Shown: one piece after another, positions 12,250-43,560 of the stretch | How the letters are laid out: every line of letters starts with the position of its first letter | Numbering within the stretch: the first letter of the stretch is position 1 | Assembly (NCBI GenBank): GCA_050084515.1 | Contig: CM114271.1 | Span: 2,046,001 to 2,110,000 of the forward strand | Length of the DNA: 64,000 bases | Source: Blasia pusilla | Taxonomy: Eukaryota | Direction: 5' to 3' | Notes under the pieces: model-generated | What the model was told of the DNA's origin: nothing | What the model saw: only the letters and a program-made list of their open reading frames with translations | The model's database searches: none | Made by a program: the position numbers and the translations under genes

Positions 12250-15033
12250 TGGGGGTTGGTATTCTGGCAGGAGAGAGGAAGAGAGGAGAGTCTCTCTTAA
12301 AATAAAAAGGGCCAAATCCGCCTCTTCTCTTCAAAACTTTTTGACATATTTGAAATTTTTGTTTGCTTTCAAATTCATGAAATCTTTAGAAGAGAGTAGG
12401 TAGTGGTCCACATTCGGGCCTAAAGAAACCTCCTTTTTCCAGGGGGCGAAAAACAAGCAGACATCATAAGATCACTATAAACATTTTTCCATCACTTTCC
12501 ATGTGAGCCTAAGTTTCTTCACATTGCCTGTCTTAGTCTACAGTAAGCTGTGCCCAGGGGTATTTTTGTTGGAGGACCATTGGCAAATAATTTGACTAGA
12601 AGTAGCAATCTCATCTCAATGAAATGTTCAAATAAAGAGTCTAACGATAGTCTCAACAGACTGCGGTGCTTTTCAAGGTTTAACTTCTCAGAATATTTGG
12701 TTGACATTATGGATTGACATCTCTTCTTGCAAAAGAAAGGCACAAGGAAATGCATGTAAATGATTGTTGACTCTTCTTGTAGAAAGCATCAATACTCATC
12801 ATACATTATGGAAAACCATTGGCAACACAGTACCAAAATGAGAATTGTTGAGCTTCCCCCATTCCTAAGTGTCTCTGAAGTGTTAATGTGTCATGAGACC
12901 TCAACCGGATGCGCATTGGGTACGATGCCAACCTCTCTTTTTGCAGGGATTGTTGCCTGCATCATGGCTTCCCTTGAATTACCCCATAATGAATGGTGTC
13001 TGCTAAAGACCAACTTTGTGAAATGTGAACACACGAGACGATAATTGTACCAAAATATTGTTAGCTATCTGGAGTAAAGAGGAATTGATGTCCCTTCATT
13101 CAGATCCTAAATCTGAGAAATCGAGAAGCTGTACCCCTCCCAACCCGTCGGAATTTTAGAGGTTGCAACTCTTGCAACCCGTCGGAATCAGATGGCTTGC
13201 ACCCCTTGCAAGCAAGCTCACCATAACAAAGGAAAGATTTTCAGAAGTGATTCAATTCCACCCTGCACCCACAAAAATCCAACAGGTTGGCAATCCGACA
13301 AGTAGTAGGAATCCAGCACGTCTTAGAGAAGAAAAGAAGCCTACGACTGGTTTGACGATACTAGGGGAACGAACCAAAAGTGAAGAAGCTCACCACAATA
13401 CCTCAGAATTTGGTCTCATAGGGAAAGAGTCAGATCACTCAAGCAGCTAACCTGTCAAAATCCGACAACTTGCTTGGAAATGGTTAAAAAGTTGCAATGT
13501 TCAAAAAGTGAAAAGTTGCAACACGTCGGAATCAGACAGCTTGCCTGGAAATGGTTAAAAAGTTGCAGTGTTCAAAAAGTGAAAAGTTGCAACCCGTCGG
13601 AATCAGACGGGTTGCAAAATAAACATTTTGAATAGCTAGACGAACACAATCGACAAGTCAAAAATATATATTCAACTAACTTTTACAAACACCATTATCG
13701 TTTGAAAAAATCTTGTCCTTTATTACATCCGAAGGAAGCTCGGAAATGTACATTTGATCTAGTCTGTGATTTCTTCAGCCTCGTCATCTATAAATTTACT
13801 CCTAACTCTCCTAGGTTTCTGTACAAAAGGAATGTCATGGGATACAAGTGGCTCCTCTGGCCGATTGTAGACGGGGATAAAAAATGTTGGCGAATTCGAG
13901 AGCCTTGGCCCTCCCCTAGGTACACCATAACGGTCCCATGTAACCATATTTGAGTCCCACTGCCTTCCTTGGCAGTATTCTTGTACGCTCTGCAAGGTGA
14001 CACCCATCCAATATCAATATGTGCTCCGTCCTTGGAAACACCATCATGACAATCTGACAGGTCGTAGGAATCCAACACGTCTTAGAGAAGAGAAGAAGCC
14101 TATGACTTGTTTGACAATACTAGGGGAAGGAGCCAAAGTGAAGAAGCCCGCCAGAATGCCTCTAAAGTTGGACTAACAGGGAAAGAGTCCGATCACTCAC
14201 GCAGCCAATATGTCAAAATCGGACATGTTGCTTGGAAGTGGTTAAAAAGGTGCAGTGGTCAAAAAGTGAAAAGTTGCAACCCGTGGGAATCGGACAAGTT
14301 GCAAAATAAATTGTCGGAGTACATAGACGATAACAATCGACAAGACCAAAAAAGATATTCAGCAAAATTTTACAAACACCATCATCGCTCGAAAAAATCT
14401 TGTCCTTTATTACATCCGAAGGAAGCTCGGAATTGTACATTTGATATATTCTATGAATTCTTTTGCCTCGTCATCAAATAAATCCCTACTCCAAAACGCT
14501 GCAGTCAAGCTAGGTCCGTGAGTTCTTTGAACTCACTCGTCATCGTCCGAGAGCTCCTCCTGAATTACTGTCGGCCTTGCCCTCCCAATTTTTGGAATCG
14601 TGGGAAGTGACGATGGTGTCACTACCAATGGTGGGTCTGGAACCAGAGCTCTTGGCCTTGGAGGAGAGTTGTACGCCCCAACTAGCTTGTCGTAATCTGC
14701 CTTTGCCTCTTTGCAAAGGTCAAACAGTTTATGCCTTCCCTCAAGGCAAAGAATGTTCCTGCCACTATGCCATGCGCCTCTGATACTCGCCCCTTGAAAG
14801 GCCCACTAAGTCGAACACCAAGTCACCCGGCCTTGAGCACAGCTCGATGAGCGTTTGCATCAGGGCTGGCAACTTTTCCCTTCCTCCAAGTAAGGGGGTA
14901 CTGTCTTGCATGTAAATTCCGGGGGGTGGGAGGGATTGTATAAACTATCTAAGCTGTACCCATCGGAGCATGGATCCACTGGATCCAGGATCTTAAATAC
15001 TTGGAAGTTGTGCTCGGGCCGAACAAAGCGTAA
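12250..15033 (-). mobile_element. Mutator-like element copy A, right arm (terminus to last exon of the MTase-like gene)
   Basis: Reverse complement of 25747-27953; terminus (T)GGGGGTTGGTATTCTGGCAGGAGAG also seen at 40545; flanked by CCCTCATAA (12241-12249). Confidence 0.85.
14533..15030 (-). pseudogene. Last exon of ParB/amino-methyltransferase-like gene, copy A
   Basis: Hand translation REKLPALMQTLIELCSRPGDLVFDLVGLSRASIRGAWHSGRNILCLE resembles the KP..LI..S.PGD.VLD...GR....E C-terminal block of beta-class N4/N6 MTases. Confidence 0.75.
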
Positions 15034-18000
15034 TGCGAACATGCTCCGAACTTCCCCCGTCTACGAGTCTGAAACCGGCACTTGTAAGATTGTCCACTTT
15101 GTCTTGAGTGCGGTTCGTACCTATGGCGATGGGCCAAATCGTGGGGGTATTCCCCGGAGCTCCAATGGCAGCCGGATAAGACTTCCGGAAAGCGCAAGAT
15201 TCATTTGGGCAGAAGAAGTACTTCAATTGATCCCCGGTCCTTGTGAAACAATCAAAGGTTTTGAGTCCCCAAAACCCAGGCAGTGGTCATCCAGTGCTTG
15301 TACAGTTCTTATTTAGGAAAGTGCCGCATGCTCTCCTAATTCCATCAGATCCTGCCCTGCAGGTGGGTTCACGTCCTGGGTTGCTCCGAGATATATGCCA
15401 CCATTTTAGGTTGCAATCCACCTCCATTACCGGAATCCCATATTGTTGAACCACCCTAGTGACCGGATGTTGCGAACTTCCAACAACGGAGGGCTTTTGA
15501 AATAAGACATTCACTGATTTTGAAGAAGGGTCTCCATCACGGATTTGGGACGGTTTCGGGGTCCCCGAATACCTGGGCGGCATAATTTCCTCATCCAAAT
15601 CAATCACCGGATTTGTTCCTCGATGCTGCCTCTTCACCTGTCTGAAGTCAAGATACTTATCTGGTCTCCACGAGTCTCGCTCGGACTGCTCTACCACCAT
15701 CTGAATGGGACGTCTTGAAACCCGCCCATGAATATCCCCACCAATGTGTATGTCTTGCTCGAGGGGAGTTCCAGCTACGCACCGGTTGAAGGCTTCCACA
15801 TACATTTTTCATCACTCGATCTCACAGCCACCCTGATATAGAGCTCGTAGATCGACGGCCCCCTTCCTTTTGTTATGCCTTTTGTGAGGAAGATATGAGA
15901 CGCTGCAGACTGTAGCATTGCTCTTGCTTGGTCTTGTTGGCATGCCTCCACAAGTGAAATTCGTTGGCATGCTTGTGACGACCTCCAGGAGGAATGAACA
16001 CTTTCTGCTCCACTTGTGTTGGGGCAGAGGGCATTTTCATGAATGTTCAATCCCTGCAACGATGGAAATGTTAGAAGGGAACGAAAATAACTCAGGAGTA
16101 AAAAATATAAGCTACATGTCGGAACCAGACGGGTTGCAAGCCCAAGGCATCCCATGAACGACTCTGCAACCCGTCGGGTCCCGACGTGTTGCAACCTTAA
16201 ACCCACCTACTGCAACCCGTCGGAACCAGACTGGTTGCAAGCCCAAGGCATCCCATGAACGACTTTGCGACCCGTCAGGTCCCGACGTGTTGCAAACTTA
16301 AACCCACCTACTACAACCGATCGGAACTAGACGGGTTGCAAGGCCGAAGCATCCCATGAACGACTTTGCGACCCGTCGGGTCTCGACGTGTTGCAACCGT
16401 AAACCCACCTACTGCAACCCGTCGGATTCAGACGGGTTGCAAGGCCGAGGCATCCCATGAACGACTCTACAACCCGTCGGGTCCCGACGTGTTGCAACCC
16501 TAAACCCACCTACTACAACCTGTCGGATTCAGACGGGTTGCAAGAACCTATGGCCACTCTGGAAGATCCAAGTGCAAGTCCTCCAAAACCCATCCGGGTC
16601 AAACTATTTGCAGGCCTTGTATACATGCAACTTGCATACTTGTCTATGGGTTGCACCAAAATTCTGGATGCAACCCGTCGGTTTTCGTCGGGTTGCACAC
16701 TCGGGCAACCCGTCGCATCCGACAGCTTGATTGGTTTCTTCGGTTTGAAATTGCTATAGTTCCCACGCTTTTCAACTTGAGCTGCAACTTTACAAACAAT
16801 TCTCAGCGTGAGCTTGACAAGACCAAATAGTGAACTCACCTGCCGCATGAAGTTTCCACATTGTCTCATACGTACAGTCCACCAACTCAACCAAGAGCAC
16901 AACTCTTTGTACTTCCCCTCAATCGCATGCTTCCTCCACCACCCATGAAGTTCTTCTTGGCATTCCATGGCATGCTTCAAGGTTTTGTTGTCCTTGTAGC
17001 GTTGGAGTAGAGTGACATGCTCTGTCCTCTTATTCTCCTTGATGCAAGATTTGGTGTACCGGGTCACGGACTGTTGCCAATGGAAAGCATCCGACCTTTC
17101 CCTCTCCGGTTGAACCTCTCCACCCCAAAACACTTCCGAGATAGCAATTCACCCAGGTTGTGCATTGTCCGCCATGAACCCATAAATTTCCGGAGGTGGC
17201 CTTTTTTTTCCTTCACCACCTCCAATAAGAGTAACCAGCACATCTTCAAACTGCCAACGTCTTCTGCCTTTACTTCACACACAAATATAGTTTTGAGTCC
17301 CTTCTCCACATGGTCATAAACGTGAGCACCCATCGTCAACCATCCGTTCAGTACTCTGTAGCAAATATCAAAGCTTACCCAACTGCCGTAAAGATCTTCC
17401 CCTTCCCTCATTCGATCTATAAGATCGAGGCCACTCGACGGACCTATGGTTGACATTTTGAAGACATAGGCCCTAAATCCCTCGCCTCCTTGGCCCATGA
17501 ACTGCCATCTCTCAATGAATGGAAATCTGGACTTGGCCTTGATTCTGGCGATGGCATCCATTTCGGCCGTCTTTCCATCCAGAACTCGTATTTGACGCAG
17601 CAAATTTCGGAAGCATTCAGGATCAGGGAGAAATGCAAGATTTTCCCAAAGTTGTTTCTCCTCAACCGTCGTGATCTCGCCCTGTCCAAAGATTCCAAGC
17701 AATTGTTCACAAATTTGTGATGCCATTGTGAGCTTGATCACTCAGGGCTTTGAACCCGGAGAGTTTCTGTAGACCTCGGCAACTTTCTTCGCCACATCCT
17801 CCTTGATGTGTCTCTGAATTGCATCGATCACAGGATGAGTGTGGGAGCCAACATGAACTTCCGGCCTTGTGTACTTTGACGTGGAGCCCAAGTTGTGGAC
17901 AATGAAAAATATGTATGCAGGACACGCTCCCACGCAAAACTGCGATGCGTGACAATGAGGACATCGAAGGCCTCCCGGCGGTATGGTGGCACCAACCTCG

Positions 18001-18850
18001 TAAGGAGTTTCTGCATTTTGGGGGGGAATTGGGACGTATTGACTCGCCCGTTGCCCTCTAGATACGGGCATGCTGGACTTCTACACTCCAAGGCTCCGAC
18101 GCATTGGCGGCGGGAGACAATCCAAGGACCATCTCGAATTGAAGCACTAGTCCGTTGAAGCCTGCACCATCGCTGACAATCAGACTTTCTGTCCATACCC
18201 TTCAGGCGTCCTCCATCTTTCTTTTGAGCAGGAGCAGCAAGTGGAGGCAACTCAAAAATGCAATTACCATCATACGTGGGCGGCAGCTCATCGACAAGAA
18301 TGTGCTTGAACATTTTCAAGGCCAAAGATGAAAGCAAACTATTGCCTGATACTCGCAAGAGGAACGAGTAGGCGAACAGAGGGCCCGGTTGGTGTACGAC
18401 AGATCCACTGAAGTTGATAACATCCGGAATCTCTTCAGGAAGAACAACATTGTTACGAGCATGTGAAGTTGGAGTCGAAGCCGGATCTACTGAGCTAGGA
18501 GTTGCAAACGTAGAGCTTGGAGCACTAGGAAATTCTCGACCGTCTACTTGGGAAACATATGAATTCAGGGGCAGGCCGTAAACTCTGTATTGACCATTTG
18601 CTAGAGGTAGGAGATTCCATACTTTACGGTTTGCAATCACTAGTTGGATTGTCTCACCTATTATGTCCTCCGTACCGTCCACCCTAACATCCTTGGATAC
18701 AAAGATGGTTCCAATTTGGAAAAGAAATCGAACAGAGAGAAAATTTTCATCCACTGCTATGAAAGACTCAAGAGCTTGCGGCCGAACGATTTCTGATTGA
18801 GGAAGGGCCGCTAGATGACTGCCACAAGTGAGCTTCACATAATTATCCAT
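15031..18850 (-). pseudogene. MULE-type DDE transposase with N-terminal GCM/WRKY-like Zn finger, copy B (exons 18850-16840 and 16053-15031; SWIM end deleted)
   Basis: RRQCVGALECRSPAC..CPHC..C..HVGSHTHP; D1 WVSFDICY; D2 GFMADNA..AIREVF; DAFHW; E in NTSGAESVHS; intron CAG|GTGAGT..TTGCAG; frameshifts and stop. Confidence 0.8.
16117..16543. repeat. Tandem array of ~4 x 101-bp units in the transposase intron, two palindromes per unit
   Basis: GGAACCAGACGGGTTGCAAG-type motif recurs at 16121, 16222, 16323, 16424, 16525. Confidence 0.9.
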
Positions 18851-19154
18851 TCCCAAAAATTTTGTATGGGAGGAGGGTGAGAATGAGAATGAGAATCGGA
18901 TTGAGAATCGGAATGAGAATGAGAATGAGAATGAGAATTTTTAATTTATAGTGAATAGGAAATCAGATACTCTTGATAGAATTTTACTGACAAGATGAAG
19001 TTCGGTAGGTGAAATTTTCTGACACAATGGATTCAATTCTGTTGCAATCTGTTACAAGATTTGGGAAGCAGAGACGTGGGTTGCGAAGCACACTTCATTT
19101 CGTTGGAACCCGTCGGAGTCCTGGTAACTCAACTATTAACCCAAGCTAAGCAAA

Positions 19155-19722
19155 GCCTGCAACCCATCGGCTTCGGACAGGTTGCACGCTTCTGCCTTAC
19201 CTTGAAACGCAAACATGATCAAAGCTGGCAACCCGTCGCTCTCCGACAAGTTGATCGGATACCGCGCCTTCTTGCCCGAAGATGGCGGAGGCTTGTAACC
19301 CGTCGGCATCAGACGGGTTGCCCAATTATCTCACGGTGTAACACTTACATGAAGGAAGCATGCAAACCGTCTGTTCCCGACGAGTTCGCGGGTGCCGCAC
19401 CTTCTTGCCCAAAGACGGCAAGGCGTGCAACCCGTCGCCCTCCGACGGGTTGCGCAAGGGCCTTGCCTTGTTTCGCTTACATGAAGGAAGCATGCAACCT
19501 GTTGGCCTCCGACAAGTTGCGTGGGAAGCCCGTGTTGTTAACCCTTGATGAGGGAAGCGTGCAACCCAACGGTCTCCGACGGGTTGCGCGGGTACGTTCG
19601 GTTCTTGTCCGAAGACGGTGGAGGCACTCAACCTGTCGGTCTCCGATGGGTTGCTCGCGCACCTCGCGTTATCGTCCCAGGACGGCGGAGGCACGCAACC
19701 TGTCGGACTCCGACGGGTTGCC
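19155..19722. repeat. Cluster of GCAACCCGTCGG-N3-CCGACGGGTTGC palindromes in the intergenic spacer
   Basis: About nine degenerate copies; a homologous cluster lies at 35405-36190. Confidence 0.85.
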
Positions 19723-19781
19723 ATTTTTCACGTCCAGACTTCCGTAACGGCCAGCACGTCGTTGTTGGAAGGTCAACGCGA

Positions 19782-19818
19782 CCCAACGGTCAGCCCAACG
19801 GCTAGAAAAGTATAAATA
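19782..19818 (+). promoter_or_regulatory. Putative promoter: two CCAACGG (MSA-like) motifs followed by TATAAATA
   Basis: CCCAACGGTCAGCCCAACGGCTAGAAAAGTATAAATA, conserved at 36250-36286. Confidence 0.55.
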
Positions 19819-21289
19819 GGGAAGAAATTGCTCATTTCCGGTTTCTCATTTTGCGATCTCCATCGCTCTCCCGCGCAGCAGGTGATCAGATACCAAGGGG
19901 CGCTTCACACGGCGAGTCATCGCGAGACGATACGAGCGAACGATCGTGAGACGGTTTGACCAAACGATCGCGAGACAATTCGAGCTACCCATCAAGGCAA
20001 CTCATCTCGATATCAGCAAGGCCACTGATCAAGCGATTCATCATGGACATAGGTGGAGGAATTTTTAGGAAAAATGACGAGGAAAAAAGCTCAAGCAAAC
20101 AAGTCTGGGAGCTTCACTCCCAAGTCCATTAGGACTCCTGCGTCACCATCTCCAGGGCCTCGTTCGGCAAATGAGATAAGGCAGCAAGAAATCAAGGAGC
20201 GAGAAAGGGAAGCGAAGATGCACAACTAGGAGGTTCTTGCGAAACGTGTACAAGAGGCGCTCGATAAACAGAACGCAGAGGCTGAGATGTCGTAGGCCTT
20301 GAAGAAAAGAGTCGCCGACAAAAAGCGAGAAAAGAAGCGTCTGGACGCGTCGGTGAGGAGAGCAGAATTGGCTAAAGCGAGGAGGGAAAAAGAAATAGCC
20401 ATTGACGACAGCGCTACCCATCAACCGAAAGTTTTGAGATGCGGGAAATGTCTCCGATGAAGTCCGGGGACACAATCAATATAGCGGAAACGGCCGGTGT
20501 TAAAATTCATGGACGATGAGATCATGAGGACCGCTAGTGTGGAGATGGTGGACATTGCTGAAGAAGCAAGAGAGCGGTCATCCTCCTCTCCAAGCCCGGC
20601 GGAAGAAATCAACCTCTATCGGATCGACGAGTTTCCAATGGACTTGCCAGCTGCTGTCTTAGAGCTGTTGGCTGGTCAAGAAACCCACCCAATCTTTGAG
20701 CGGGTAAGAGAGGATCTGGATTTTTTGAATTATGTGAAGGCCCATCTTGCAATTTATTGGCAATTCAGTGTAGCTTACTGATCTTGTCCCGGTTGTGACA
20801 GGTGGTAAAGCAGATGGCACTGATGGAAGGCCACAACGCCCCGAGAATTCCACTCTGCCGATTGCGGACAATGGAGTACGGCCGCGAAATTCAGTCTAAC
20901 GAGGATATTGCAAAGCTCAAACAATCGAAGGTGACAGCATCCTACGTCGACAACTTCCCTCCTCTCTATGTTCAGACTTACAATGACCATGGAACCCAAG
21001 CGCTGGTTACAGAGGAGGACTTGGAAAAGCTTGAGATATTCTGGAGGATGAGAGATCAAGAATTCAGAAGGCAAGTAGAGGGGACGGAATTCAGCTGGAT
21101 GAGGAATCTGCATTTCTTCATCTGGGATGGAAATCACAGGTTCATGGCATGGACAAAGTTTGCAGAGGAGCGCCCAAACTCCTTGGAGGCACATTTTTGC
21201 GTGAAGGCAGTGGTCCTTCATCCATACCCTCATCACATGGCGACGGTGGAGATGGCCATGCATGCCATGAACACGTAAGTTTCTTCTTG

Positions 21290-21985
21290 CTGCAAACCAT
21301 CGGACTCCGACAAGTTGTTTGAGTCGCCACTATTTTTGGGATGTTGTTGGCCAAATGCAACTCGTCGGACTCCAACGAGTTGCTCGATTGATGAATGGGT
21401 TAGGATGTTTTTGGCCGAAAGCAACTCGTCGGAGTCCGACGAGTTGCTCGACAGGCCGCATTCTTTGGATGTATATTGAAGAAAGCAACTCATCGGAGTC
21501 CGATGAGTTGCTCGACTCGCCGCCTTTTTTGGATGTTTTTTGAAGAAAGCAACTCGTCGGACTCCGACAAGTTGCTCGACTCGCCGCCTTTTTTGGATGT
21601 TTTTTGAAGAAAGCAACTCGTCGGAGTACGACGAGTTGTTCGACTGACCACAGGTTTAGTATGTTTTTGGCCTAAAGCAACTCGTCGGAGTCCGACGGGT
21701 TGCTTGACTCGAAGCTATTTTTGGAGGTTTTTTTATGTTTTTGGCCGAAAGAAACTCGTCGGAGTCCGACAGATTGCATTCGGAAGTTAGAAGCTACCTT
21801 TTTCGCGTCAAATTGCAGCTTTCATTGCAATTGCGCAACTTGTCGGACTGTGACGGGTTGTTATGTTCACTTTTGATACGGACTATCTGACAACCCGTCA
21901 GACTCCGACGGGTTGCATAATTTAGCTCGTTGCTAGAATCCGACCTTGAGCTGTGACGACCTGTCGGAGTCCGACGGGTTGCAGG
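21290..21985. repeat. Intronic array with 64-bp period built on the palindrome variant GCAACTCGTCGG-N3-CCGACGAGTTGC
   Basis: Copies start at 21357, 21421, 21485, 21549, 21613, 21677, plus looser flanking copies. Confidence 0.9.
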
Positions 21986-25329: not shown

Positions 25330-25620
25330 GTGAGCAACCCGTCGAAAGGCGACAGGTTGCTGGCTTAGAGTAGCCCATGCTTGGCTGAGAGCAACCCGTC
25401 GCTTTCCGACGGGTTGCATCTTTCCCAGAAACACAGGGAAAACGCATTACCACCTGCAATTGCTTATGGTTTTTCCCTATGTTTCCGGAAAGCTGCAACC
25501 CGTCAGAAAGCGACGGGTTGCTCTCAGCCAAGCATGGACTGCTCTAAGCCAGCAACCGGTCGCCTTCCGACGGGTTGGTCATGGACAAAAACAACCCGTC
25601 AAACTCCGACAGGTTGCTCC
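25330..25620. repeat. Palindrome cluster in intron 3
   Basis: About five GCAACCCGTC..GACGGGTTGC copies; homologous cluster at 40365-40545. Confidence 0.85.
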
Positions 25621-31447: not shown

Positions 31448-34400
31448 TCAAAGTGGTTTGTTTAGAATACTTCGCACTTCTTTGAGGGACAGAATTGGTT
31501 GGTGGATTCCTACTCCTACCTCCGACTCTCTTAAAATTACAAGCAACATATAGTACATGTACTTACAAGGGAAATACCTTTTGCCACTTGTCTCTCTTTG
31601 GACAAAGTCATCACATTAACATGTGGGAAAGCAACAGATGTGCACCACATACACCCTTGTGACACTTGAATTTACAATGTTGTTCCTGACCCAATACATC
31701 CTTCCGATTCCATTGCCACAAGGGACATCTTTTGTGGCGATGATCTCCATTTTTGCCTCTCGAGCTGATGCAATTCGCTTTGCTCTCTCCACCGTTAGCC
31801 TACACATTGTGTTTCTCTTCACCCCATTTCTAGACTCAAACAAAAATAGTGGATTGAGATCATCCACCTTCTCCGAGTACATGTTGACATCAATCTTGGG
31901 TTGGATACGAAATGCAAAGGTCTCTCTAATGCGAACATGCTTTGAACTTCCTCCGTTTACCAGTCTGAAACCGGCACTTGTAAGATTTTCCACTTCGTCT
32001 TGAGTGCAATTTGTACCTACTGCAATGGGCCAAATCGTGGGGGTATTCCCCGGAGCTCCAATGGCAGCCAGATAAGACTTCTGGAAAGCGCGAGTTTCAT
32101 TTGGGCAGAAGAAGTACTTCAATTGATCCCCGTTCCTCATGAAAGAATCAAAGGTTTTGAGTCCCCAAAACCCAGGCAGTGGTCGTACAGTCCTTGTATT
32201 GTTCTTATTTAGGAAAGTGCCGCATGCTCTCCTAATACCATCAGATCCTGCCCTGCAAGTGGGTCCACGTCTAGGGTTCCTCTGAGATATATGCCACCGT
32301 TTCAGGTTGCAATCCACCTCCATGACCGGAATCCCATATTGTTGAACCACCCCAGCGATCAGATGTTGCGAACTTCCAGCAATAGAGGGCTTTTGAAATA
32401 AAACATTCGCTGATTTTGGAGAAGTTACTCCATTACAGATTTGGGAGCAATCCGGGGTCCCCAAATACCTGGGCGGCGTAATTTCCTCATCCAAATCAAT
32501 CACCGGAATCATTCCTCGATGCTGCCTCTTCACTTGCATGAAGTCAAGATACTTATCTGGTCTCCATGAGTCTCGCTCGGACTGCTCTACCACCATCTGT
32601 ATAGGACGTCTAGAAACGTATCCACAAATATTCCCACCAATATGTATATCTTGCTCGAGGGGAGTTCCTGCTACGCACCGGTTAAAGGCTTCCACATAGA
32701 GTTTCTCATCACCAGATCTCACAGCTGCCCTGACATAGAGCTCGTAGATTAAAGGCCCCCTTCCTTTTGTTATGCCTTTTGTGAGGAAGATATGGGATGC
32801 TGCAGACTGTAGCATTGCTCTTGCTTGGTCTTGTTGGCATGCCTCCACAAGTGAAATTCTTTGGCATGCTTGTGACGACCTCAAGGAGGAATGAACACTT
32901 TTCGCTCCACTTGTGTTGGGGCAGAGGGCATTTTCATGAATATTCAATCCCTGCAAGAACCCCAATGTGAGAAGGGAACAAAAATAACTCAAAAGTCAAA
33001 GAAATAAGTTCCCTGTCAGAACCAGACGGGTTGCAAGGCCGAGGCATCCCATGAACGACTCTGCGACCTGTCGGTTCCTGACGTGTTGCAACACCCAAGA
33101 ACCACAAGTTGGTTGGTTTTTTCGGTTTGAAATCCCTATAGTGCCCACGCTTCTCAACTTTAGTTGCAACTCTTCAAACAATTTTCAGCGTGAGCTTGAC
33201 GAGACAAATTAGTGAACTTACCTCCCGCATGAAGTTTCCCCATTGTCTCATTCGTATAGTCCACCAACTCAGCCAAGAGCATAACTCTTTGTACTTCCCC
33301 TCAATCGCATGTTTCCTCCACCACCCATGAAGTTCTTCTTGGCATTCCATGATCTGTTTCAAGGTTTTGCTGTCCTTGCAGCGTTGGAGTAGAGTGACAT
33401 GCTCTGTCCTCTTATTCTCCTTGATGCAAGATTTGGTGTACCGGGTCACACACTGTTGCCAATGGAAAACATCCGACCTTTCCCTCTCCGGTTGAACCTC
33501 TCCACTCCATAACATTTCCCTGATAGCAATCCACCTAAGTTGTGCATTGTCCGCCATGAACCCATAAATTTCCGGAGGTGGCCTTTTGTTTTCCTTCACC
33601 ACCTCCAATAACCCTAACCAGCACATCTTCAAACTGCCAACGTCATCTGCTTTTACTTCACAGAAAAATATAGTTTTGAGTCCCTTCTCCACATGGTCAT
33701 AAACGTGAGCACCCATTGTCAACCATGCATTTTGCACTCTGAAGCAAATATCAAAGCTTACCCAGCTGCCGTAAAGATCTTCCCCTTCCCTCATTCGATC
33801 TATAAGATCGAGGCCACTCGACACACCTGTCGTTGATATTTTTAAGACGTAGGCCCTGGATCGTTTGCCTCATTGGCCCATGAACTTCCATCTCTAAATG
33901 AATGGAGTTGGCCTTGATTCTGGCAATGGAATCCATTTCGGCCGTATTTCCATCTTGTACCCGTATTTGATGCAGCAAATTCCGAAAGCATTCAGGATCA
34001 GCGAGAAATGTGAGATTTTCCTTGAGTTGTTTCTCCTCAGTAGCCGTGATCTCGCCTTGTCCAGGGATTCCAAGCAGTTGTTCACAAATTTGTGATGTTG
34101 TTGTTAACTTGACCACTTTGGGCTTTGAACGCGGAGAGTTCTGTAGACCTCGGCCACTTTCTTCGCCACATCTCTGAATTGCATCGGTCACAGGATGAGT
34201 GTGAGAGCCAACATGAAATGCCAGCCTTATGTACTCTGACGTGGAAACCCAAGTCGTGTACAATGAAAAATATGTATGCAGGACACGCTCCAACACAGAA
34301 AGGGGATGCCTGACAATGAGGACATCAATGGCCTCCCGGTGGTATGGTGGCACAGACCTCATATGGAGTTTCTGCATTCTTGGGGGGAACTTGCGACGTA

Positions 34401-35212
34401 TTGACTCGCTCGTTGCGGTCTAGATACGGGCATGCTGGACTTCTACACTCTAAGGCTCCAACGCATTGGCGGCGGGAGACAATCCAAGGACCATCTAGAA
34501 TTGAAGCACTAGTCCGTTGAAGCTTGCACCATCGATGAAAATCAGACTTTCTGTCCATACCCTTCAAGCGTCCTCCATCTATCTTTTGAGCAGGAGCAGC
34601 AAGTGGAGGCAACTCAAAAATGCAATTACCATCGTACGTGGGCGGCAACTCGTCGACAAGAATGTGCTTGAACATTTTCAAGGCGAGAGACGACAACAAA
34701 CTATTGCTTGATACTCGCAAGAGGAATGAGTAGGCGGAAAGAGGGCCCGGTTGGTGTCCGACAGATCCATTGAGGTTGACAACAGCCGGAATGTCTTCAG
34801 GAAGTACAACATTGTAATGAACGTGTGAAGTTGGATTTGATGCCGGATCTACTAAGCTAGGAGTTGCAAATGTAGAGCTTGGTGCGCTAGGAAATTCTCG
34901 ACCGTCTACCTCGGAAACTAAGGAATTCAGAGGCAAGCCGTAAACTCTATATTGACCATTTGCTAGAGGTAGGAGATTCCATACTTTACGGTCTCCAATC
35001 ACTGGCTGGATTTTCTCACCTATTATGTCCTCCGTACCATCCACCCTAACATCCTTGGACATAAAGATTGTTCCAATTTGGAGAAGAAATTGAACTGAGA
35101 GAAATTTTTCATCCATTGGTATGAAAGACTCACGAGCTTGCGGTCGAACGATTTCTGATTGAGGAAGGGCTGCTAGATGACTGCCACAAGTGAGCTTCAC
35201 ATAATTATCCAT
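31448..35212 (-). pseudogene. GCM-like/MULE DDE/SWIM transposase, copy A (exons 35212-33222 and 32950-31448)
   Basis: SFDICF, FMADNA, DVFHW; third catalytic residue E>K (GAKSVH); SWIM-like CFPTC*CDDF..PCKY; frameshifts. Confidence 0.82.
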
Positions 35213-36573
35213 TCCCAAAATATTCCACCGGGAGGAGACCGGAAATAAGAATGAGGATAAGAATGGGAATGGGAATGGGTATGAGAATGAGAATGAGAAT
35301 GTTTAATTTATAGTGAATAGGGACTCAAATTCTCCTGTTAGAATTTGACTGACAAGATGAAGTTTGGTAGGTGAGAATGTCTGACATCATGTATTCAATT
35401 TTTTTGCAACCTGTCGGAGTCCAATGGGTTGCAGAAATTGGGAATCACAGACGTGGGTTGCGAAGCACCCAGTTCCATTTTTTGTTTCGGTGTCCCAATG
35501 TAAGTTGGAACCTGTCGGAGTCCGTTGGAACCCGTCAGAGTCCCTTCTTGCCGACCAATGGTCTTTCGAGTCGATTTTGCTAGCATCAAACACCAGACAT
35601 CGCTTGCATTTGCTAAGGCAACCAATCGTTGGGGACTGTTACGCGATTGTCCAACTCAGGGTAGACCTTGTGACCCGTCGTATTGTAAGGGGTTGCCTCG
35701 GACTATGCGTTGTTGCATTGTTACCCGAGGGATAGAAAAGCGTGCAACCTGTCGGTAACCGACGGGTTGCTCAGGTTCCTAGCCTATTACCCCAAGATGA
35801 GGGAAGCGTGCAACCCCTCGGCCTCCGACGAGTTGCGCAGGTACCCCGCCTTGTTATCCCAAGATGAGGGAAGCGTGCAACCCGTCGGCCTCCGACAGGT
35901 TGCGCAAGTGCCTCACCTTGTAATGCTTCCATGAAGGAACCGTGCAACCCATCGGCCTCCGCCGAGTTGCGCAGGTACCCCACCTTGTTATCCCAAGACG
36001 AGGGACGCGTGCAACCCCCCGGTCTCCGACGGGTTGTGCGGGTACCTTGCGTTCTTGCCCGAAGACGGCGGAGGCGCGTAACCTATCGGTCTCCGACGGG
36101 TTTCCAGGATAGCTCGGCTTTTTAACCAGAGGAGGACAGATGCCTGCAACCCGCGAGAAGCGTGCAACCCGTCGGAGCCGTCGGGTTGGTGGTTTTCACG
36201 TCCACACTTCCATGATGGCCGACACGTCGCCGTCGAAACAACGGTGCGATCCAACGGTCAGCCCAACGGCTCGAAAAGTATAAATAGGCGAGGGTTCGCT
36301 CATTTCCGGTTTTTCGTTTCGTGATCTCGATTGCCCTTCCGCGCAGCTGCTGACCAGATACCAAGGGGCGCTTTATACGGCGACTCATCGCAAGACGATT
36401 CGAGCGAACGATCGCGAGACTATTCGAGCGACTCATCAAGGCGACTCATCATGACATCAGCAAGACGACTCATCAAGGCGACTCATCGTGACATCAACAA
36501 GACAACTCATCAAGGCGACTCATCGTGTACAAAAAGTAACTTTGTTGTCGAGGAGGAGGCATTTTCGGAAACA

Positions 36574-39500
36574 ATGACGAGGAAAAAATCTCAAGCAAGC
36601 AAGGTTGGGAGCTTCACTCCCAAATCCATGAGGACTCCTGCATCACCATCTCCAGGGCCTCGTTCGGCCAATGAGATAAGGCAACATGAGATCGAGGAGC
36701 GGGAAAGGGAAGCGGATATGCACAGGCAAGAGCTTCTTGCAAAACGTGTTATGGAGGCGCTCGAAAAACAGAACGCAGAGGCTGAGGCGTTGCAAGCCTT
36801 GAAGAAAAGGATCGCCGAGGAATAGCGTGAAAAGAAGCGTTGGTGAGGAGAACAAAATTGGCAAAAGCTTGAAGGGAAAAAGCGATTGCCATTGAAGAAA
36901 GCCCGCCCCGTCCAACCGAAAGTGTGGAGATGCAGGAAATGTCCCCGATGAAGTTTGGGGACACAATCAATATAAAATTGGATGAGGAAACGGCAGAAGT
37001 TCAAGTGACGAACGATGAGGTCATGAGGACCACCAACGTGGAGATGGTGGACATCTCTGAAGAAGCAGGATAGCAGTATTCCTTGTCTTTGAGCCCGGCG
37101 GAAGAAATCGACCTCTATTGGATCAACGAGTTTCCAGTGGACTTGCCAACTGCTGTCCCAGAGTAGTTGGCGGGCCATGACACCGACCCAATCTTTGAGC
37201 GGGTAAGAAACGATCTTGGATCTTCAAGTTATGTGAAGGCCCATGTTTCAATTCATTGGCAATTCAGTGTAGTTTATTGAATTTGTCCCCGTTGTGACAG
37301 TATTAAAGCAGATGGCACTAATGGAGGGCCAGAACGCCCCGAGAATTCCACTCTTCCAATTTCGGACAATGGAGTACGTCCGCGAAATTCAGTCTGACGA
37401 GGATATTGAGAAGCTGAAACAGTCGGCAGCGACAACATCCTATATCAACAGCTTCCCTCCATTCTATGTTCAGCATTACGATCAACATGGAATCCAAGCG
37501 TTGGTGACGGAGGAGGACTTAGAAGCGCTCGACACATTCTAGAGGATGAGAGATCAGGAATTCAGAAGAGCGATTGAGGGGACGGAATTCAGCTGGATGC
37601 GGAACCTCTATTTCTTCATTTGGGATGGAAACCACATGTTCATGGCGTGGACCTAGTTTGCAGAGGAGCGCCAAAATTCATTGGAGGCGCATTTTTGCGT
37701 GAAGGCAGTTGTGCTAAATCCATACCCTCATCACATGGCGACGGTGGAAATGGCCATGCATGCCATGAACACGTAAGTTTCCTCTTCCTTTTTTTTTTAT
37801 TGCTGCAAACCGTCTGACTCTGACAAGTTGTTTAACTAGTGGTAACAAAACATCGGATGCCTAAAAGCAACTCGTCGGAGTACGACGAGTTGCTTGACCG
37901 GCCACTATTTTTAGGATGTTTTTGGCCGAAAGCAACTCGTCGGACTCCAACGGGTTGCATTCGCCGCCACGGGTAGGTGATCGGAGTAGGGGAGCTTGAT
38001 TTTTAGCATCAAATTGTTGCTTTACTTGAAATTGCGCAACCAGTTGGACTCCGACATGTTCAGAGAGTGGTTTCAACCCGTCGGAGTCCGAGGAATTGTA
38101 ACCAGGAAATTACAAATCTGAATGCAATCCGTGGGACTCTGATAGGTTGCAATATTTAGCTCTTAGGTACCATTTCGACCATAAGGTGTAGCGACCTGTC
38201 GGAGTACGACATGTTGCAGGAACCGATGTAGCTTGCAAAAATTCTTATAGTGTGTTTGGATGTGCAGGATTGTATATGAGGGGAACGTCACCCACCACTG
38301 GATCCAGGATTGCGACCGGGTGAAGAAAGTGCTAGCGACGCACTCGGCAGAGTACAAGGGGTTCTTGGGCGATGCTCTTGTAAATGAGATGCTGGCGAAG
38401 GGGGCTCAAATAAAAAAAAAGACTTGGGCAAATACATTTATTTCCTAAGATGCAACCGTGACAATCCTTTGCTGGTCGAAGATACAGGCCGCCAAGAAGA
38501 GCGCTTCATTGGAGCTGGAGCGGAGGGAGAATGTGTCTGTGTCTGAGCATGCTAAGTTCATCCAAGCTTCAGTATCTGCAGCTACGAAGTACACTGCAAG
38601 CAAGATGCAACGCTACATCGCCATTCTCAACCCCGAACTTGGCCTCGATTTCTACAAGGAGCTGAAGGCGATAATCAAGTGCCAGTCGAAGAGGGATGAA
38701 GATCCGCAAGGTTGGATTGGGGAGAAAGTGTCTCTCGACCGCGTCCATAGATTTGCCTTGTCTGGAATTTTGGAATTTAGGAGAATCCGACTATGAAAAC
38801 CAGTCTCGAGGGCAGAGAGGCCCAAAAGAGGGCGGCACACCATCCTCCGGGTGTCTTTGATCCAGTGATCTCCCACTGGCTCCGTGAATGGTCATTCTGG
38901 GACGCGTTGCGGCTTCTCGGAAGTCCATGCTCGTGGGTCTCCAAGCGGAGCTGAAAAAAATAGAGCCTATTCTGGAGGAAGCAAACCTGGAGAGTGCTGA
39001 AGATTTTAAACTTTGGCTTGATGACATCCGGGACAAGCCCATGAAAAACCCAGGCTTCAGGATGATGTTCAAGGATCACATCCTCCCTCAAGCAGACTTG
39101 GATGAAGAAATAGAGGCGAAGAAAAGGGATTTCGCAAAGAAGAAGCGAGATCTTCAAGAGCAGGCGGCCGATGCATCTCGACAAAGAGCTGCCCAACGGA
39201 TGGTGTTCAGGTACCTCATCCATTGTAAGCATGCAGGTACCTGGCAAAAAGTACCGGTAGCCTGCAAATTGTGGGCTTCTCCGCCTCATGGAGAGGCATT
39301 TTCTATGTACGACATGGAGATGGCACAGGGCATGTCCGATAGGGAGGTTGACAATTGCCCAATCTGGTTGGACTTCAACGACCCTGAGGACATAACCGAG
39401 AAAAATCTACGCCTGGTCTATGATGCAGTGGCCGTAGGTAGGGACGACATCCCGAATTTTGTGCAGCCTGAAGACTTTTTTGAAGGAGATGCGGAGGAGC

Positions 39501-40308
39501 AAGCCATCGAGACAGCGGAGTTGGTGTCCAAGGTCGTCACCGCCAAGGACAAATCTACAACAGGTGTGAAAGCAAAGGCAAGGGGATCGAAGAATTTTGA
39601 GGCCGAGTCTTCCAAAAAAGAGGCTGAGAATTCAGACGAGAGGCGGAATCGTCCAGGTGAGCGGGGAGAGAGGGCCGGACGAGGTCCTCCGCCAAGAAAA
39701 CTCCAACAGAGTCTGAGATAATAGAGATCCCAACAAGCCGACCGCAGACTCGAGAAAAGCGGAAGCGAGAGGCGCCACGTTTGTCCCAGGGAGCAGACCA
39801 GGATGTGGAATACACTCCATCATCCTTGGGCAAACATAGAGAAACAATGACCCGGACAAGCATCATCATTCACTGCACGAATCTTCTGGATGAGTTGCAA
39901 AGTTTCAGTTCCCAAGAGTTGACACCCGCCATCGACAAATTAACAATGTTGGGATGGAAGCTTCAACGAAATGGGCACGCTCCCTACACGGTCCATGGGG
40001 AGGTCGAGGAGGTGGCCATGGATCTCCTCGTCGCTGATTTTCCCTCTGGGTTGCGCTTGTGGGATGAAAATCCGTCTGACAATGTCCCAGACTGGAATGT
40101 CCCTCTTACCTGTGACCAGATCCCGCTCATGTTTTCCTTTGCAGACGCTTATCTCAGTGACAGGGGCTATTTCTTGGTCTTAACTGGAGGAAGCAAGGAC
40201 GAGCTCTTCAACCTGCAGTGCGTGAAGAGGTCGCTGACGTGGAGGACGGTGCAATCGTGGGTCATCAAGAACGAGTTCCCACTCCGATCGGCGACGAGTC
40301 AAATCTGG
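36574..40308 (+). pseudogene. ParB-like + amino-MTase-like gene, copy A, exons 1-3
   Basis: MTRKKSQ start; IWDGNHMFMAW; MDLLVADFPSG..FADAYLSDRGYFLV; donor TGG|GTAAGG at 40308; many stops. Confidence 0.72.
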
Positions 40309-40544
40309 GTAAGGGCTCTAAATCCATATACAATTTGTCCTGCTCCGACGGTTTGCATCTCTGCATGCAACCCGTCGGATTGTCTAAGCTGGTCACTACG
40401 GTGTTGCAATCCGTCTGAAAGCGATGGGTTGCAAATTTACCACAAGTCTCTATTGGGTGAATGCAACCCGTCGGAACCGGACGGGTTGCAAGTGCTTATG
40501 CTTTTCCTTGTGTTTCTAGAATGATGCAACCCGTCTGAAAGCAA

Positions 40545-40739
40545 CGGGGGCTGGTATTCTGGCAGGAGAGAGTAAGAGAGGAGAGGAAGAGAGGAAGAGA
40601 GGAGAGTCTCTCTTAAAAAAAAAGGGCCAAATCCGCCTCCTCTCTTCAAAACTTTTTGACATATTTGAAATTTTTATTTGTTTTCAAATCCATGAAATCT
40701 TTAGAAGAGAGTAGGTAGTGGTCCACATTTGGCCCTAAA
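40545..40739 (-). mobile_element. Terminal ~195 bp of the Mutator-like right end (inferred displaced end of copy B)
   Basis: Matches 12250-12424, which is the part missing from the arm that stops at 27953. Confidence 0.85.

Positions 40740-43442: not shown

Positions 43443-43560
<118 letters not shown>

What the first reader, a model, noticed from the sequence alone, without database searches (positions are those of the whole stretch)
13130..40545. One 27-bp palindrome repeated dozens of times, apparently only in non-coding parts of the element
Seen: GCAACCCGTCGG-N3-CCGACGGGTTGC (12-bp arms) in the transposase intron, introns 2 and 3 of the accessory gene, the intergenic spacer and both subterminal regions (e.g. 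13588, 16412, 19426, 21677, 25391, 27149, 31245, 35876, 40463, 59731, 61597). I saw none in exons or in flanking retroelements, although the sequence around each copy differs by region. Known: ParB proteins load at palindromic parS sites, and Arabidopsis VANDAL MULEs accumulate short VANC-binding motifs in non-coding tandem repeats. Inference: self-recognition sites for the element's ParB/MTase-like protein or its transposase, i.e. a sequence-specific anti-silencing or self-marking system.
Basis: partly seen in the sequence, partly recalled or inferred. Interest (0 to 1): 0.86.

Follow-up and report, generated by a model that had tools for sequence, protein, structure and literature searches.

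The report
Transposon's own palindrome address arrays
A plant-type jumping gene carries dozens of copies of one 27-base palindrome in its introns, promoter region and end regions, most likely landing sites for one of its own proteins, a design already proposed for a few other transposons.

Summary
The palindrome is real. There are 40 copies at up to 3 mismatches against 0 in 100 shuffles and 66 at up to 5. Of 133 half-sites, 131 lie in one transposon family.

The range 13130-40545 is not one element. The window holds three diverged copies (A 12250-27951, B 31033-40550, C 59507 to the window end) plus a terminal fragment.

The sites sit in verified GT..AG introns of the transposase and accessory genes, in the divergent intergenic region and in subterminal DNA. 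None of the 66 lies in an exon.

Seven repeat-unit contexts share only the palindrome: arms 87% identical, flanks 27.5%. Between copies the arms are better kept than the flanks, 85% against 77%.

The accessory protein has a ParB/Srx fold and a divergent N6/N4-methylase-like tail. The transposase looks Mutator-like.

In 6 of 25 groups of distant relatives from metagenomes, the ParB-like exon is accompanied by a different recurrent palindrome.

Best reading (0.55): family-specific binding-site arrays for an element-encoded dimeric protein, as with VANDAL/VANC and red-algal PAG3. Binding was not tested. This is a new variant of a known kind.

The parts
12250..27951 (+). Copy A of the element. It has long inverted arms (about 12250-15033 against 25745-27951). 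It is degenerate and cut short at its right end.
   Evidence: Self-BLAST pairs 12905-15033 with 27805-25745 at 81-88% identity. WGS reads continue after 27951 with the reverse complement of the block at 12405-12435 (loose ends).
31033..40550 (+). Copy B of the element. Its left end is intact and its right end region is missing.
   Evidence: Five collinear BLAST blocks to copy A at 80-90% identity. The left end is shared with copy C from 31033/59507.
59507..64000 (+). Copy C of the element. It runs off the end of the window.
   Evidence: Matches 31046-35262 at 90.5-91.3% identity.
40550..40739 (+). Fragment D. It is a left terminal block like 12256-12424.
   Evidence: 94.9% identity over 157 bp; sequences read.
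31616..35212 (-). Transposase gene of copy B. It looks Mutator-like and has an N-terminal zinc finger of WRKY-GCM1 type. Its intron lies at 32952-33211.
   Evidence: ORFs. ESM Atlas links the core to MULE/ZSWIM RNaseH-like clusters at 0.94. The homologous zinc-finger piece of copy A resembles FAR1/GCM/DBD_Tnp_Mut-like clusters. The donor AG|GTAAGT and the acceptor TTGCAG|G were read. Stranded RNA reads fit the minus strand.
15031..18850 (-). Transposase gene of copy A. It is truncated at its 3' end and frameshifted. Its intron lies at about 16055-16829.
   Evidence: ORFs. The intron bounds are transferred from copy B through the BLAST offsets.
20829..21275 (+). Accessory gene of copy A: the exon that encodes the ParB/Srx-fold domain with a D-G-N-H-R motif.
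   Evidence: 119 homologs at E<=1e-3 and alignment A1. The AF2 model has pLDDT 89. The best Foldseek hits are ParB, Noc, KorB and sulfiredoxin.
22033..22804 (+). Accessory gene of copy A: the exon that encodes an all-helical domain of unknown fold.
   Evidence: Collinear tblastn of the Riccia homologs. The AF2 model has pLDDT 79. No Foldseek match was better than E=0.76.
24113..25285 (+). Accessory gene of copy A: the exon with the methylase-like motif IV region (D-L-P-S).
   Evidence: tblastn of P0122 and P0124; ORF.
25729..25990 (+). Accessory gene of copy A: the last exon, with the methylase motif I region. An inverted second copy lies at 14801-14914 on the minus strand.
   Evidence: The acceptor TTTACAG| was read. 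tblastn of P0120/P0122 hits 14914-14801 at E=5e-4; translation.
13140..14302 (.). Array 1, in the left arm of copy A. Its mirror lies at 26472-27583 in the right arm.
16111..16716 (.). Array 2, in the transposase intron of copy A. It has 10 full sites in 101-bp units that each hold two sites. Its counterparts lie at 33023-33089 in copy B and 61509-61801 in copy C.
19105..19721 (.). Array 3, between the divergent transposase and accessory genes of copy A, with a 67-bp period. Its counterpart in copy B lies at 35406-36189.
21292..21982 (.). Array 4, in the accessory intron 21276-22032 of copy A. It has 11 sites at a 64-bp period, and 9 of the 11 carry T at arm position 6. Its counterpart in copy B lies at 37805-38217.
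25334..25617 (.). Array 5, in the last accessory intron of copy A. Its counterpart in copy B lies at 40345-40537.
31244..31270 (.). A single site about 210 bp inside the left end of copy B. Its counterpart in copy C lies at 59730-59756.

Best explanation
The 27-bp palindrome is the family-specific cis 'address' of a high-copy DNA transposon of Mutator-like type. A dimeric, sequence-specific protein encoded by the element binds it.

The site has been multiplied by tandem-repeat formation wherever the element tolerates it. These places are the region between the divergently transcribed transposase and accessory genes, one transposase intron, two accessory-gene introns and the subterminal DNA. 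Every copy therefore offers a dense cluster of sites.

I think the binder is more likely the accessory protein (ParB/Srx fold plus N6/N4-methylase-like domain; about 0.45 of the total) than the zinc finger of the transposase (about 0.3). I think the effect is regulatory: recognition of own copies, then de-repression or marking. The models are VANC on VANDAL21 and the proposal for PAG3 in red-algal Plavaka elements. I do not think the sites position the cleavage at the ends.

Shown here: the existence of the motif, its confinement, its placement, its conservation, the protein folds, and lineage-specific palindromes in relatives. Inferred: binding, which protein binds, and the effect.
For: 1. 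Excess over chance: 40 sites against 0 in 100 shuffles.
2. Confinement: 131 of 133 half-sites lie inside family DNA, and the roughly 31 kb of other repeats in the window hold no full site.
3. Seven repeat-unit contexts share only the palindrome. Arms are 87% identical and 40-nt flanks 27.5%, over 21 pairs of array consensuses.
4. Between copies the arms are 85.3% identical (553/648) and the +/-40-nt flanks 76.6% (1731/2260). Non-CpG arm positions are 89.4% identical. The pairs are counted in both directions.
5. Arrays sit at homologous places in copies A, B and C but differ in unit number. WGS reads show further unit gains and losses in other copies, for example 165 reads that go back 78 bp at 33092 and 264 reads that skip 71 bp at 21285. 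VANC target arrays behave the same way (PMC5735166, section 9).
6. The element encodes two candidate binders. One is a ParB/Srx-fold protein (pLDDT 89; Foldseek top hits ParB, Noc, KorB and Srx with probability up to 1.00). The other is a transposase with a zinc finger resembling the WRKY-GCM1 type.
7. In 6 of 25 groups of metagenome loci found through the ParB-like exon, a different palindrome recurs 4-11 times close to that exon. The same detector found none in the two non-family parts of the window.
8. Independent precedent: tandem arrays of inverted repeats next to a ParB-like accessory gene in red-algal transposons (bioRxiv 10.1101/2025.02.11.637652, section 8).
9. The outermost roughly 200 bp of the ends carry no site. 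This fits an internal regulatory role better than end recognition.
Against: - No binding, methylation or expression effect was or could be tested here.
- No ParB-type helix-turn-helix was found. The domain after the ParB/Srx fold has no structural match.
- Pfam does not recognise the ParB-like exon, the transposase or the full homologs. The methylase assignment is below threshold (23.7-26.2 bits against a cut-off of 26.7; PDB DpnA at E=0.28), and motif IV is D-x-P-S/T rather than the canonical form.
- The conservation test leans on BLAST alignments that the palindromes themselves may anchor.
- Only 27 of 66 sites were covered by a between-copy alignment.
- 19 of 25 relative groups showed no recurrent palindrome, although many are short contigs.
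- No transposase could be recognised in the relatives' loci, so the link to the accessory gene rather than to the whole element is not established.
- The copies here are old and decaying by transitions at CpG positions.
Confidence: 0.55

Rival explanations
1. The sites are transposase binding sites used for transposition itself, that is for synapsis or stimulation by subterminal repeats. The accessory protein plays no part. The internal arrays are overflow of the same sites.
For: The transposase has an N-terminal zinc finger resembling FAR1/GCM/DBD_Tnp_Mut clusters. Sites lie in both inverted arms of copy A and about 210 bp inside the left end of copies B and C. The AtMu1c transposase binds its own ends and activates cognate copies (bioRxiv 10.64898/2026.08.24.746577, section 7).
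Against: The outer roughly 200 bp of the ends carry no site. Of the 31 full sites in copies A and B that lie in arrays 2 and 4-5, all lie in introns, and a further 15 lie in the intergenic region. The ChIP signal of AtMu1c is described as sharp peaks at the terminal repeats. The Atlas recognition value for the zinc finger is below the tool's mark (2103 against 2300).
Confidence: 0.25
2. The sites are a structural by-product. A stable hairpin-forming sequence promotes replication slippage and unequal exchange, so palindrome-bearing minisatellites arise and spread inside the element without any binding function.
For: Single strands fold at -13.7 to -16.1 kcal/mol, with z-scores of -4.9 to -8.0 against shuffles. 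All arrays are tandem and vary in unit number. Many sites are decayed, with 168 of 792 mirror pairs broken on one side.
Against: The same palindrome occurs in seven unrelated unit contexts, which slippage of one unit cannot produce. Arms are better conserved than flanks between copies. Relatives have their own recurrent palindromes, some of them dispersed with different flanks, as in L022 and L023.
Confidence: 0.1
3. The palindromes act in RNA, as intron or UTR hairpins that affect splicing or stability or that yield small RNAs.
For: Arrays 2, 4 and 5 are transcribed as parts of introns. RNA reads cover array 4 at 5-14x on the sense strand.
Against: Symmetric double changes show no excess: 16 were seen against 17.8 expected under independence, and the 12 complementary ones are all C-to-T with G-to-A. 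One-sided changes that keep a G-U pair are not favoured on either strand (43 and 49, against 76 others). Arrays also lie in the intergenic region and in the arms. A 12-bp stem is short for dicing, which is my own knowledge. The RNA over array 4 comes from one diverged copy with a foreign 5' part (loose end at 21447). No Rfam family matches.
Confidence: 0.05
4. The sites are bound by a host protein. This could be a transcription factor that the element borrows, or a host silencing factor that recognises the family.
For: The densest conserved array lies between the two divergent genes, where a promoter would be. The inner part of each arm resembles the core of the plant DRE/CRT stress element; this is recalled from memory and was not tested.
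Against: Relatives carry quite different palindromes. That fits co-evolving element-encoded binders better than one conserved host factor. A 27-bp palindrome is longer than usual plant cis-elements, which is my own knowledge.
Confidence: 0.05

Closest known systems
VANDAL21 / VANC21 anti-silencing system of Arabidopsis (Hosaka et al. 2017, PMC5735166; outline and sections 8-9 read)
   Same: - It is a Mutator-type element.
- A short family-specific motif lies at high density in non-coding parts, namely introns of accessory genes and the region upstream of the transposase.
- The motifs sit in tandem repeats whose unit number changes between related copies.
- The motif is rare outside the family.
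   Different: - The VANC motif is 9 bases long and arrayed in one orientation. Here the site is a 27-bp palindrome.
- VANC carries DUF1985/DUF287 (paper). The accessory protein here has a ParB/Srx fold plus a methylase-like domain and no Pfam hit.
- Binding and hypomethylation are shown for VANC and are untested here.
Red-algal Plavaka accessory gene PAG3 with adjacent tandem inverted repeats (Bostrychia genome preprint, bioRxiv 10.1101/2025.02.11.637652; section 8 read; supplements not seen)
   Same: A DNA transposon carries an accessory protein with a ParB-like N-terminal domain, with tandem arrays of inverted repeats next to the gene. The authors propose that the protein binds and modifies its own transposon. 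A DNA N6-adenine methylase-like accessory gene (PAG2) sits in the same elements.
   Different: - In the red alga the ParB-like domain is fused to a 2OG-dependent oxygenase, and the methylase is a separate gene. Here ParB/Srx and the methylase-like domain are in one protein.
- The host there is a red alga and the transposon is of the EnSpm/Plavaka type. Here the transposase looks Mutator-like and the relatives are bryophyte proteins.
- Here the palindromes also fill the introns of both genes.
- The preprint's repeat sequences are in figures and supplements that I could not see.
Bacterial ParB-parS and phage ParB-CTPase fold fused to N6_N4 methyltransferase (PMC12704722; passages read)
   Same: - The fold of the N-terminal domain is shared (Foldseek hits to ParB, Noc and KorB).
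- The domain pairing ParB fold plus PF01555-type methylase is reported as enriched in phages.
- The targets of ParB are palindromes that can occur in several copies.
   Different: - No helix-turn-helix and no C-terminal dimerisation domain were found.
- Pfam PF02195 does not hit.
- There is no ParA partner.
- The host is eukaryotic and the gene has introns.
- The sites lie in tandem arrays of dozens.
AtMu1c transposase and Spm TnpA as sequence-specific regulators of their own elements (bioRxiv 10.64898/2026.08.24.746577; abstract, section 7 and passages read)
   Same: An element-encoded DNA binder recognises cognate copies and causes local hypomethylation and activation.
   Different: Binding there is reported at the terminal repeats (AtMu1c), and the methylation effect mainly at subterminal regions (TnpA). 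Here most sites are internal, and no palindromic arrays are mentioned in the parts of that text I searched.

Membership tests
Mutator superfamily (MULE) DNA transposon | DDE transposase of the MULE/MuDR type | tested here: inconclusive
   Pfam gives no hit even at E<=10. Two word-based homolog searches found nothing. ESM Atlas feature search places the core with MULE / ZSWIM1-3 RNaseH-like clusters at 0.94 with 171 shared features, and all ten best hits that carry a family share that family or clan.
Mutator superfamily (MULE) DNA transposon | N-terminal zinc-finger DNA-binding domain of WRKY-GCM1 type | tested here: inconclusive
   The Atlas links it to 'FAR1 domain-containing' (0.94), GCM, FAR1 and DBD_Tnp_Mut clusters, but the recognition value is 2103, below the mark of 2300. 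A C-x2-C ... H-x-H pattern can be read in the ORF.
Mutator superfamily (MULE) DNA transposon | Terminal inverted repeats | tested here: inconclusive
   Copy A has inverted arms of more than 2 kb, and reads from other copies extend the right arm into the inverted terminal block. Copies B and C show only their left ends.
Mutator superfamily (MULE) DNA transposon | Target-site duplication of about 9-11 bp | not testable with these tools
   No copy in the window has both ends intact, and no genome is held.
VANC-type anti-silencing system | Accessory protein of the VANC family (DUF1985/DUF287) | tested here: not met
   No such Pfam domain appears on any tested ORF of the element. The accessory protein has another fold.
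VANC-type anti-silencing system | Family-specific motif at high density in non-coding tandem repeats of the element | tested here: met
VANC-type anti-silencing system | Protein binds the motif and causes loss of DNA methylation | not testable with these tools
   This needs EMSA or ChIP and methylomes.
ParB-parS type system | ParB N-terminal (CTPase, ParB/Srx) fold | tested here: met
   The AF2 model has pLDDT 89.0 and pTM 0.83. The best Foldseek hit is 6sdk_A, a ParB dimer (E=5.9e-3, probability 1.00, TMq 0.46), followed by Noc, KorB, sulfiredoxin, SbnI and PadC. D-G-N-H-R is nearly invariant in 32 sequences. The match is at the fold level only: Pfam and PDB sequence searches were negative.
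ParB-parS type system | Helix-turn-helix DNA-binding domain after the N-terminal domain | tested here: not met
   The next exon folds as a helical domain (pLDDT 79) with no Foldseek match better than E=0.76 and no ParB chain among those listed.
ParB-parS type system | Palindromic loading sites on the same replicon or element | tested here: met
   The match is in geometry only; loading is untested.
Beta-class N6/N4 DNA methyltransferase (PF01555) | Motif I (SAM-binding) region at the C-terminus | tested here: inconclusive
   PF01555 hits 3 of 6 Riccia homologs at E=9.4e-6 to 5.2e-5 and 23.7-26.2 bits, below the cut-off of 26.7. One homolog, P0143, carries a precomputed PF01555. The profile against the PDB finds only DpnA adenine methylase, at E=0.28. 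The window exon matches this region at 45% over 40 residues.
Beta-class N6/N4 DNA methyltransferase (PF01555) | Catalytic motif IV (D/S/N)-P-P-(Y/F/W) | tested here: not met
   At the aligned place the window copies read D-L-P-S (A) and D-F-P-S (B), and the Riccia consensus reads D-x-P-T. The canonical form of the motif is recalled from memory and from the TSPPY mention.
Red-algal PAG3-type accessory gene | ParB-like N-terminal domain with adjacent tandem inverted repeats | tested here: met
   compared with the description in the preprint.
Red-algal PAG3-type accessory gene | 2OG-dependent oxygenase domain | tested here: not met
   No such Pfam hit on the window ORFs or on 16 scanned homologs. 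The C-terminus is methylase-like instead.

The most novel reading that the evidence does not exclude
A bryophyte Mutator-like transposon has taken over a phage-type ParB-CTPase/N6-N4-methylase fusion and uses it as bacteria use ParB. The protein would load as a dimer at parS-like palindromes that the element has sown through all its non-coding DNA. It would then spread or act locally to mark or shield the element, either by adenine or N4-cytosine methylation or by blocking 5mC. That would give each lineage a private self-recognition code that co-diverges with its protein. Relatives of this gene could also bear on the origin of the prokaryote-type N4-cytosine methylases of liverworts.
Probability: 0.2. 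Interest if true: 0.85.

Novelty: new variant of a known kind. Interest (0 to 1): 0.62.

Why it matters
Only a few transposons are known or proposed to recognise their own copies through dense arrays of a private motif. These are VANDAL/VANC, Spm/TnpA, AtMu1 and, as a proposal, red-algal PAG3.

This case would extend the principle in three ways:
- to a bryophyte-type genome;
- to a different protein, a ParB/Srx fold fused to a methylase-like domain;
- to a different site geometry, a long palindrome that implies a dimer.

Because relatives carry different palindromes, the family offers a natural series for asking how a binder and its sites co-evolve. It would also show whether a bacterial partition-type module can work on eukaryotic chromatin. 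Such pairs could serve as orthogonal DNA-targeting parts.

Two searches for ParB together with Mutator-like elements or liverwort transposons found no description of this architecture. The nearest text found is the red-algal preprint.

Tried and rejected
- Whole-genome scan for confinement: no genome is held.
- Homologs of the transposase core: none were found in the near or the longer length class, and Pfam is silent.
- Profile of the ParB-like exon against PDB sequences: only a chance hit to a ribosomal protein.
- Helix-turn-helix after the ParB fold: the model has no structural relative.
- phmmer of a Riccia C-terminal fragment against the PDB: only E>=1.
- Homodimer prediction for the ParB/Srx exon: 'no answer', score 0.00. 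This counts neither for nor against.
- RNA evidence for splicing: the joints table of read laying was filled by the DNA run that I had added, so RNA joints were not visible. The introns rest on splice-site sequence and homolog colinearity instead.
- RNA holders: no RNA holder is listed among the indexed runs. This says nothing about expression.
It was repeated with the smaller alignment A2.
- tblastn of the window's transposase and other accessory exons against the 46 loci: only the ParB exon hits.
- Window half-site in the relatives' loci: 1 hit at up to 2 mismatches in 46 loci, so the motif itself is not shared.
- Rfam: no family at gathering score in 12000-41000.
- Earlier findings of this scan: none.
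- Hairpin selection: rejected as the main constraint, because symmetric double changes show no excess.
- The C5 DNA methylase fragment at 29305-30135: rejected as part of the element. It lies in the spacer between copies A and B and recurs at 48925-49563 beside gypsy-type sequence.

Full report
**Observation**

The pattern GCAACCCGTCGG-N3-CCGACGGGTTGC occurs 40 times at up to 3 mismatches, and 100 dinucleotide-preserving shuffles gave none. At up to 5 mismatches there are 66 sites. The outer five bases of each arm are nearly invariant: A4, T24 and T25 are present in 66 of 66 sites. The central triplet is mostly A-N-T. Most variation is C-to-T or G-to-A at the four CpG positions. That pattern is what decay of methylated cytosines would give; this is an inference. 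Of 133 half-sites at up to 2 mismatches, 131 lie in 13140-40526 or 59730-63381.

**What the region is**

- Copy A runs from about 12250 to 27951. It has inverted arms of more than 2 kb (12905-15033 against 27805-25745, 81-88% identical).
- Copy B (31033-40550) is collinear with the interior of A at 80-90% identity.
- Copy C (59507 to the window end) matches B at 90.5-91.3%.
- A 190-bp block at 40550-40739 repeats the left terminal block of A (94.9%). I read it as the start of a fourth, truncated copy.

WGS reads from the same species label continue beyond 27951 with the inverted terminal block, so this copy of A is cut short at its right end. About 3 kb between A and B belongs to another repeat that carries a C5 DNA methylase fragment. 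The flanks are copia-type and gypsy-type elements.

WGS depth over the family is about 200-1100 reads when about 1% of one run is read at 88% likeness or more. The family is therefore high-copy. An exact copy number cannot be given without the genome size.

**Genes: the transposase**

On the minus strand lies a transposase gene. Pfam does not recognise it and word-based searches found no relative. The feature search of the ESM Atlas places its core with MULE / ZSWIM RNaseH-like clusters (0.94). It places an N-terminal Cys/His-rich piece with FAR1, GCM and DBD_Tnp_Mut-like clusters, at a recognition value below the tool's mark. Stranded RNA reads cover this gene at 3-9x in the expected orientation.

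**Genes: the accessory gene**

On the plus strand lies the accessory gene.
- Its exon at 20829-21275 has 119 relatives at E<=1e-3 in the representative library, with a nearly invariant D-G-N-H-R.
- With that alignment AlphaFold gives pLDDT 89. Foldseek ranks ParB, Noc, KorB, sulfiredoxin, SbnI and PadC first (best E=5.9e-3, probability 1.00). This is a ParB/Srx fold.
- The next exon folds into a helical domain with no structural relative, so no ParB-type helix-turn-helix was found.
- The C-terminal part aligns with multi-copy proteins of Riccia sorocarpa.
- Three of the six Riccia proteins scanned touch PF01555 (N6/N4 DNA methylase) just below threshold. The profile's only PDB hits are DpnA-type adenine methylases, at E=0.28.
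- The window's last exon matches the motif I region.
- Motif IV reads D-L-P-S or D-F-P-S instead of the canonical form, so catalytic activity is doubtful.

**Where the sites are**

Three introns were verified.
- The transposase intron in B lies at 32952-33211, with donor AG|GTAAGT and acceptor TTGCAG|G.
- The accessory intron in A lies at 21276-22032, with GTAAGT at the donor end and TGCAG at the acceptor end. Homologous proteins run straight across this junction.
- The last accessory intron in A lies at about 25285-25728.

Arrays 2, 4 and 5 lie inside these introns. Array 3 lies between the two divergent start codons. Array 1 lies in the arms of A. One site lies about 210 bp inside the left end of B and C. 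No site lies in an exon. The outermost roughly 200 bp of the ends carry none.

**Is the palindrome itself the maintained unit?**

The arrays have different periods (34, 71, 46/101, 67, 64 and 93 bp). Seven array consensuses share 87% identity in the arms but 27.5% in 40 nt of flank, which is the random level.

For the 27 of 66 sites covered by an alignment between copies, the arms are 85.3% identical (553/648) and the +/-40-nt flanks 76.6% (1731/2260). Non-CpG arm positions are 89.4% identical. There are two caveats. The pairs are counted in both directions, and the palindromes may anchor the alignments.

Unit numbers differ between A, B and C. For example, the transposase intron holds 10, 1 and 6 full sites in A, B and C. 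They differ again among other genomic copies (joints).

**Hairpin or binding site?**

The single strand folds well, at -13.7 to -16.1 kcal/mol. Symmetric double changes, however, are no more frequent than independence predicts (16 against 17.8). Broken pairs are common (168 of 792), and changes that keep a G-U pair are not favoured on either strand. I take this as evidence against pairing being the selected property. It does not exclude that hairpins help the arrays to grow.

**Relatives**

A scan of metagenome contigs with the conserved WDGN stretch gave 46 loci that encode the ParB-like exon. They fall into 25 groups.

The window's motif is absent from them: there is 1 weak half-site in 46 loci. 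Six groups carry their own recurrent palindrome near the exon:
- L002: a core with 6-9-bp arms, 5-7 sites in two arrays;
- L003: 10-bp arms with a 2-nt spacer, 5 sites;
- L022: 9-bp arms with an 8-nt spacer, 5 dispersed sites;
- the L023 group: 10-bp arms with a 6-nt spacer, 11 sites on both sides of the exon;
- the L032 group: 11-bp arms with an 18-19-nt spacer, 9 sites just upstream;
- the L040 group: 4 sites.

By the fixed detector, 4 of the 12 groups that have a contig of 9 kb or more are positive. None of the 13 groups with only shorter contigs is positive, and neither of the two non-family parts of the window is. The other 19 groups showed nothing. Many are short or decayed, and no transposase could be recognised in any locus. 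The link is therefore to this gene's neighbourhood, not provably to the gene.

**Comparison with what is known**

- VANDAL21's VANC21 binds a 9-base motif that is dense in non-coding tandem repeats, namely introns of VANB/VANC and the region upstream of VANA, and these repeats change quickly between copies (PMC5735166, sections 8-9). The anatomy here is the same in those respects. It differs in motif geometry and in the protein.
- A red-alga genome preprint reports Plavaka transposons with a ParB-like/2OG-oxygenase accessory gene flanked by tandem arrays of inverted repeats, and a separate N6-adenine methylase-like gene. It proposes self-binding. This is the closest precedent.
- Fusions of the ParB-CTPase fold to N6_N4 methyltransferase are reported as enriched in phages (PMC12704722, passages).
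- The AtMu1c transposase alone binds its terminal repeats and activates cognate copies. This keeps the transposase in play as the binder.
- Liverworts have host methylases of prokaryotic N4 type (bioRxiv 10.1101/2021.02.12.428880, passages). I did not compare them with this protein.
- Searches for ParB with Mutator-like elements, or with liverwort transposable elements, found no description of this architecture.

**Verdict**

The best-supported explanation (0.55) is an array of family-specific binding sites for an element-encoded dimeric protein, with a regulatory or self-marking role. The accessory ParB/Srx-methylase-like protein is a somewhat more likely binder than the transposase. Nothing about binding or effect is shown.

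This is a new variant of a known kind. It is interesting mainly for the protein type, the palindromic geometry and the lineage-specific sites in relatives.

Noticed in passing
window 28216-30135 and 48394-49563: A C5 cytosine DNA methylase fragment (PF00145, E=6.9e-12 on 29305-30135) lies in a repeat that is present twice at about 81% identity. The second copy lies 0.7-2 kb upstream of gypsy-type RT/RNase H on the same strand. Among the bins laid, 28668-29331 has the highest RNA depth (30-39x). This may be a retroelement-borne DNMT.
   Followed up: partly
window 14801-14914 (minus strand) and about 25856-25969 (plus strand): The long inverted arms of copy A include the last exon of the accessory gene (methylase motif I region). 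The left arm therefore carries an inverted second copy of that exon next to the truncated 3' end of the transposase gene.
   Followed up: partly
window 22799-24015: Copy A has a 1215-bp stretch inside the accessory gene that copy B lacks. 46 WGS reads skip it, so it is polymorphic among family copies. It is probably a nested insertion.
   Followed up: no
window 21447-22017: RNA reads over accessory-intron array 4 are 5-14x deep, more than over the neighbouring exons. All carry the same set of differences, and 30 reads in X18 have a foreign sequence before 21447. They come from one diverged fragment that is transcribed as part of something else.
   Followed up: no
window 12256-12300, 31033-31080, 40556-40606, 59507-59562: All visible left ends of the family start with a purine-rich GA tract of 30-50 bp, in the same orientation. 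It is not clear whether this is the true terminal repeat.
   Followed up: partly
loci L002, L003, L022, L023-L025/L027, L032/L033, L040: Metagenome contigs that encode distant relatives of the ParB-like exon each carry a different recurrent palindrome (4-11 sites) within a few kb of that exon.
   Followed up: yes
window 43441-43558 and 44789-44939: Two long dinucleotide runs lie 1.2 kb apart on complementary strands: (GA)58 and (CT)75.
   Followed up: no
proteins P0010, P0012, P0122 and 29 others: The accessory protein family is annotated as dozens of 'hypothetical' genes on many contigs of Riccia sorocarpa. UniRef labels some of them 'Trimethylguanosine synthase', a name that the Pfam scans here do not support.
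   Followed up: partly
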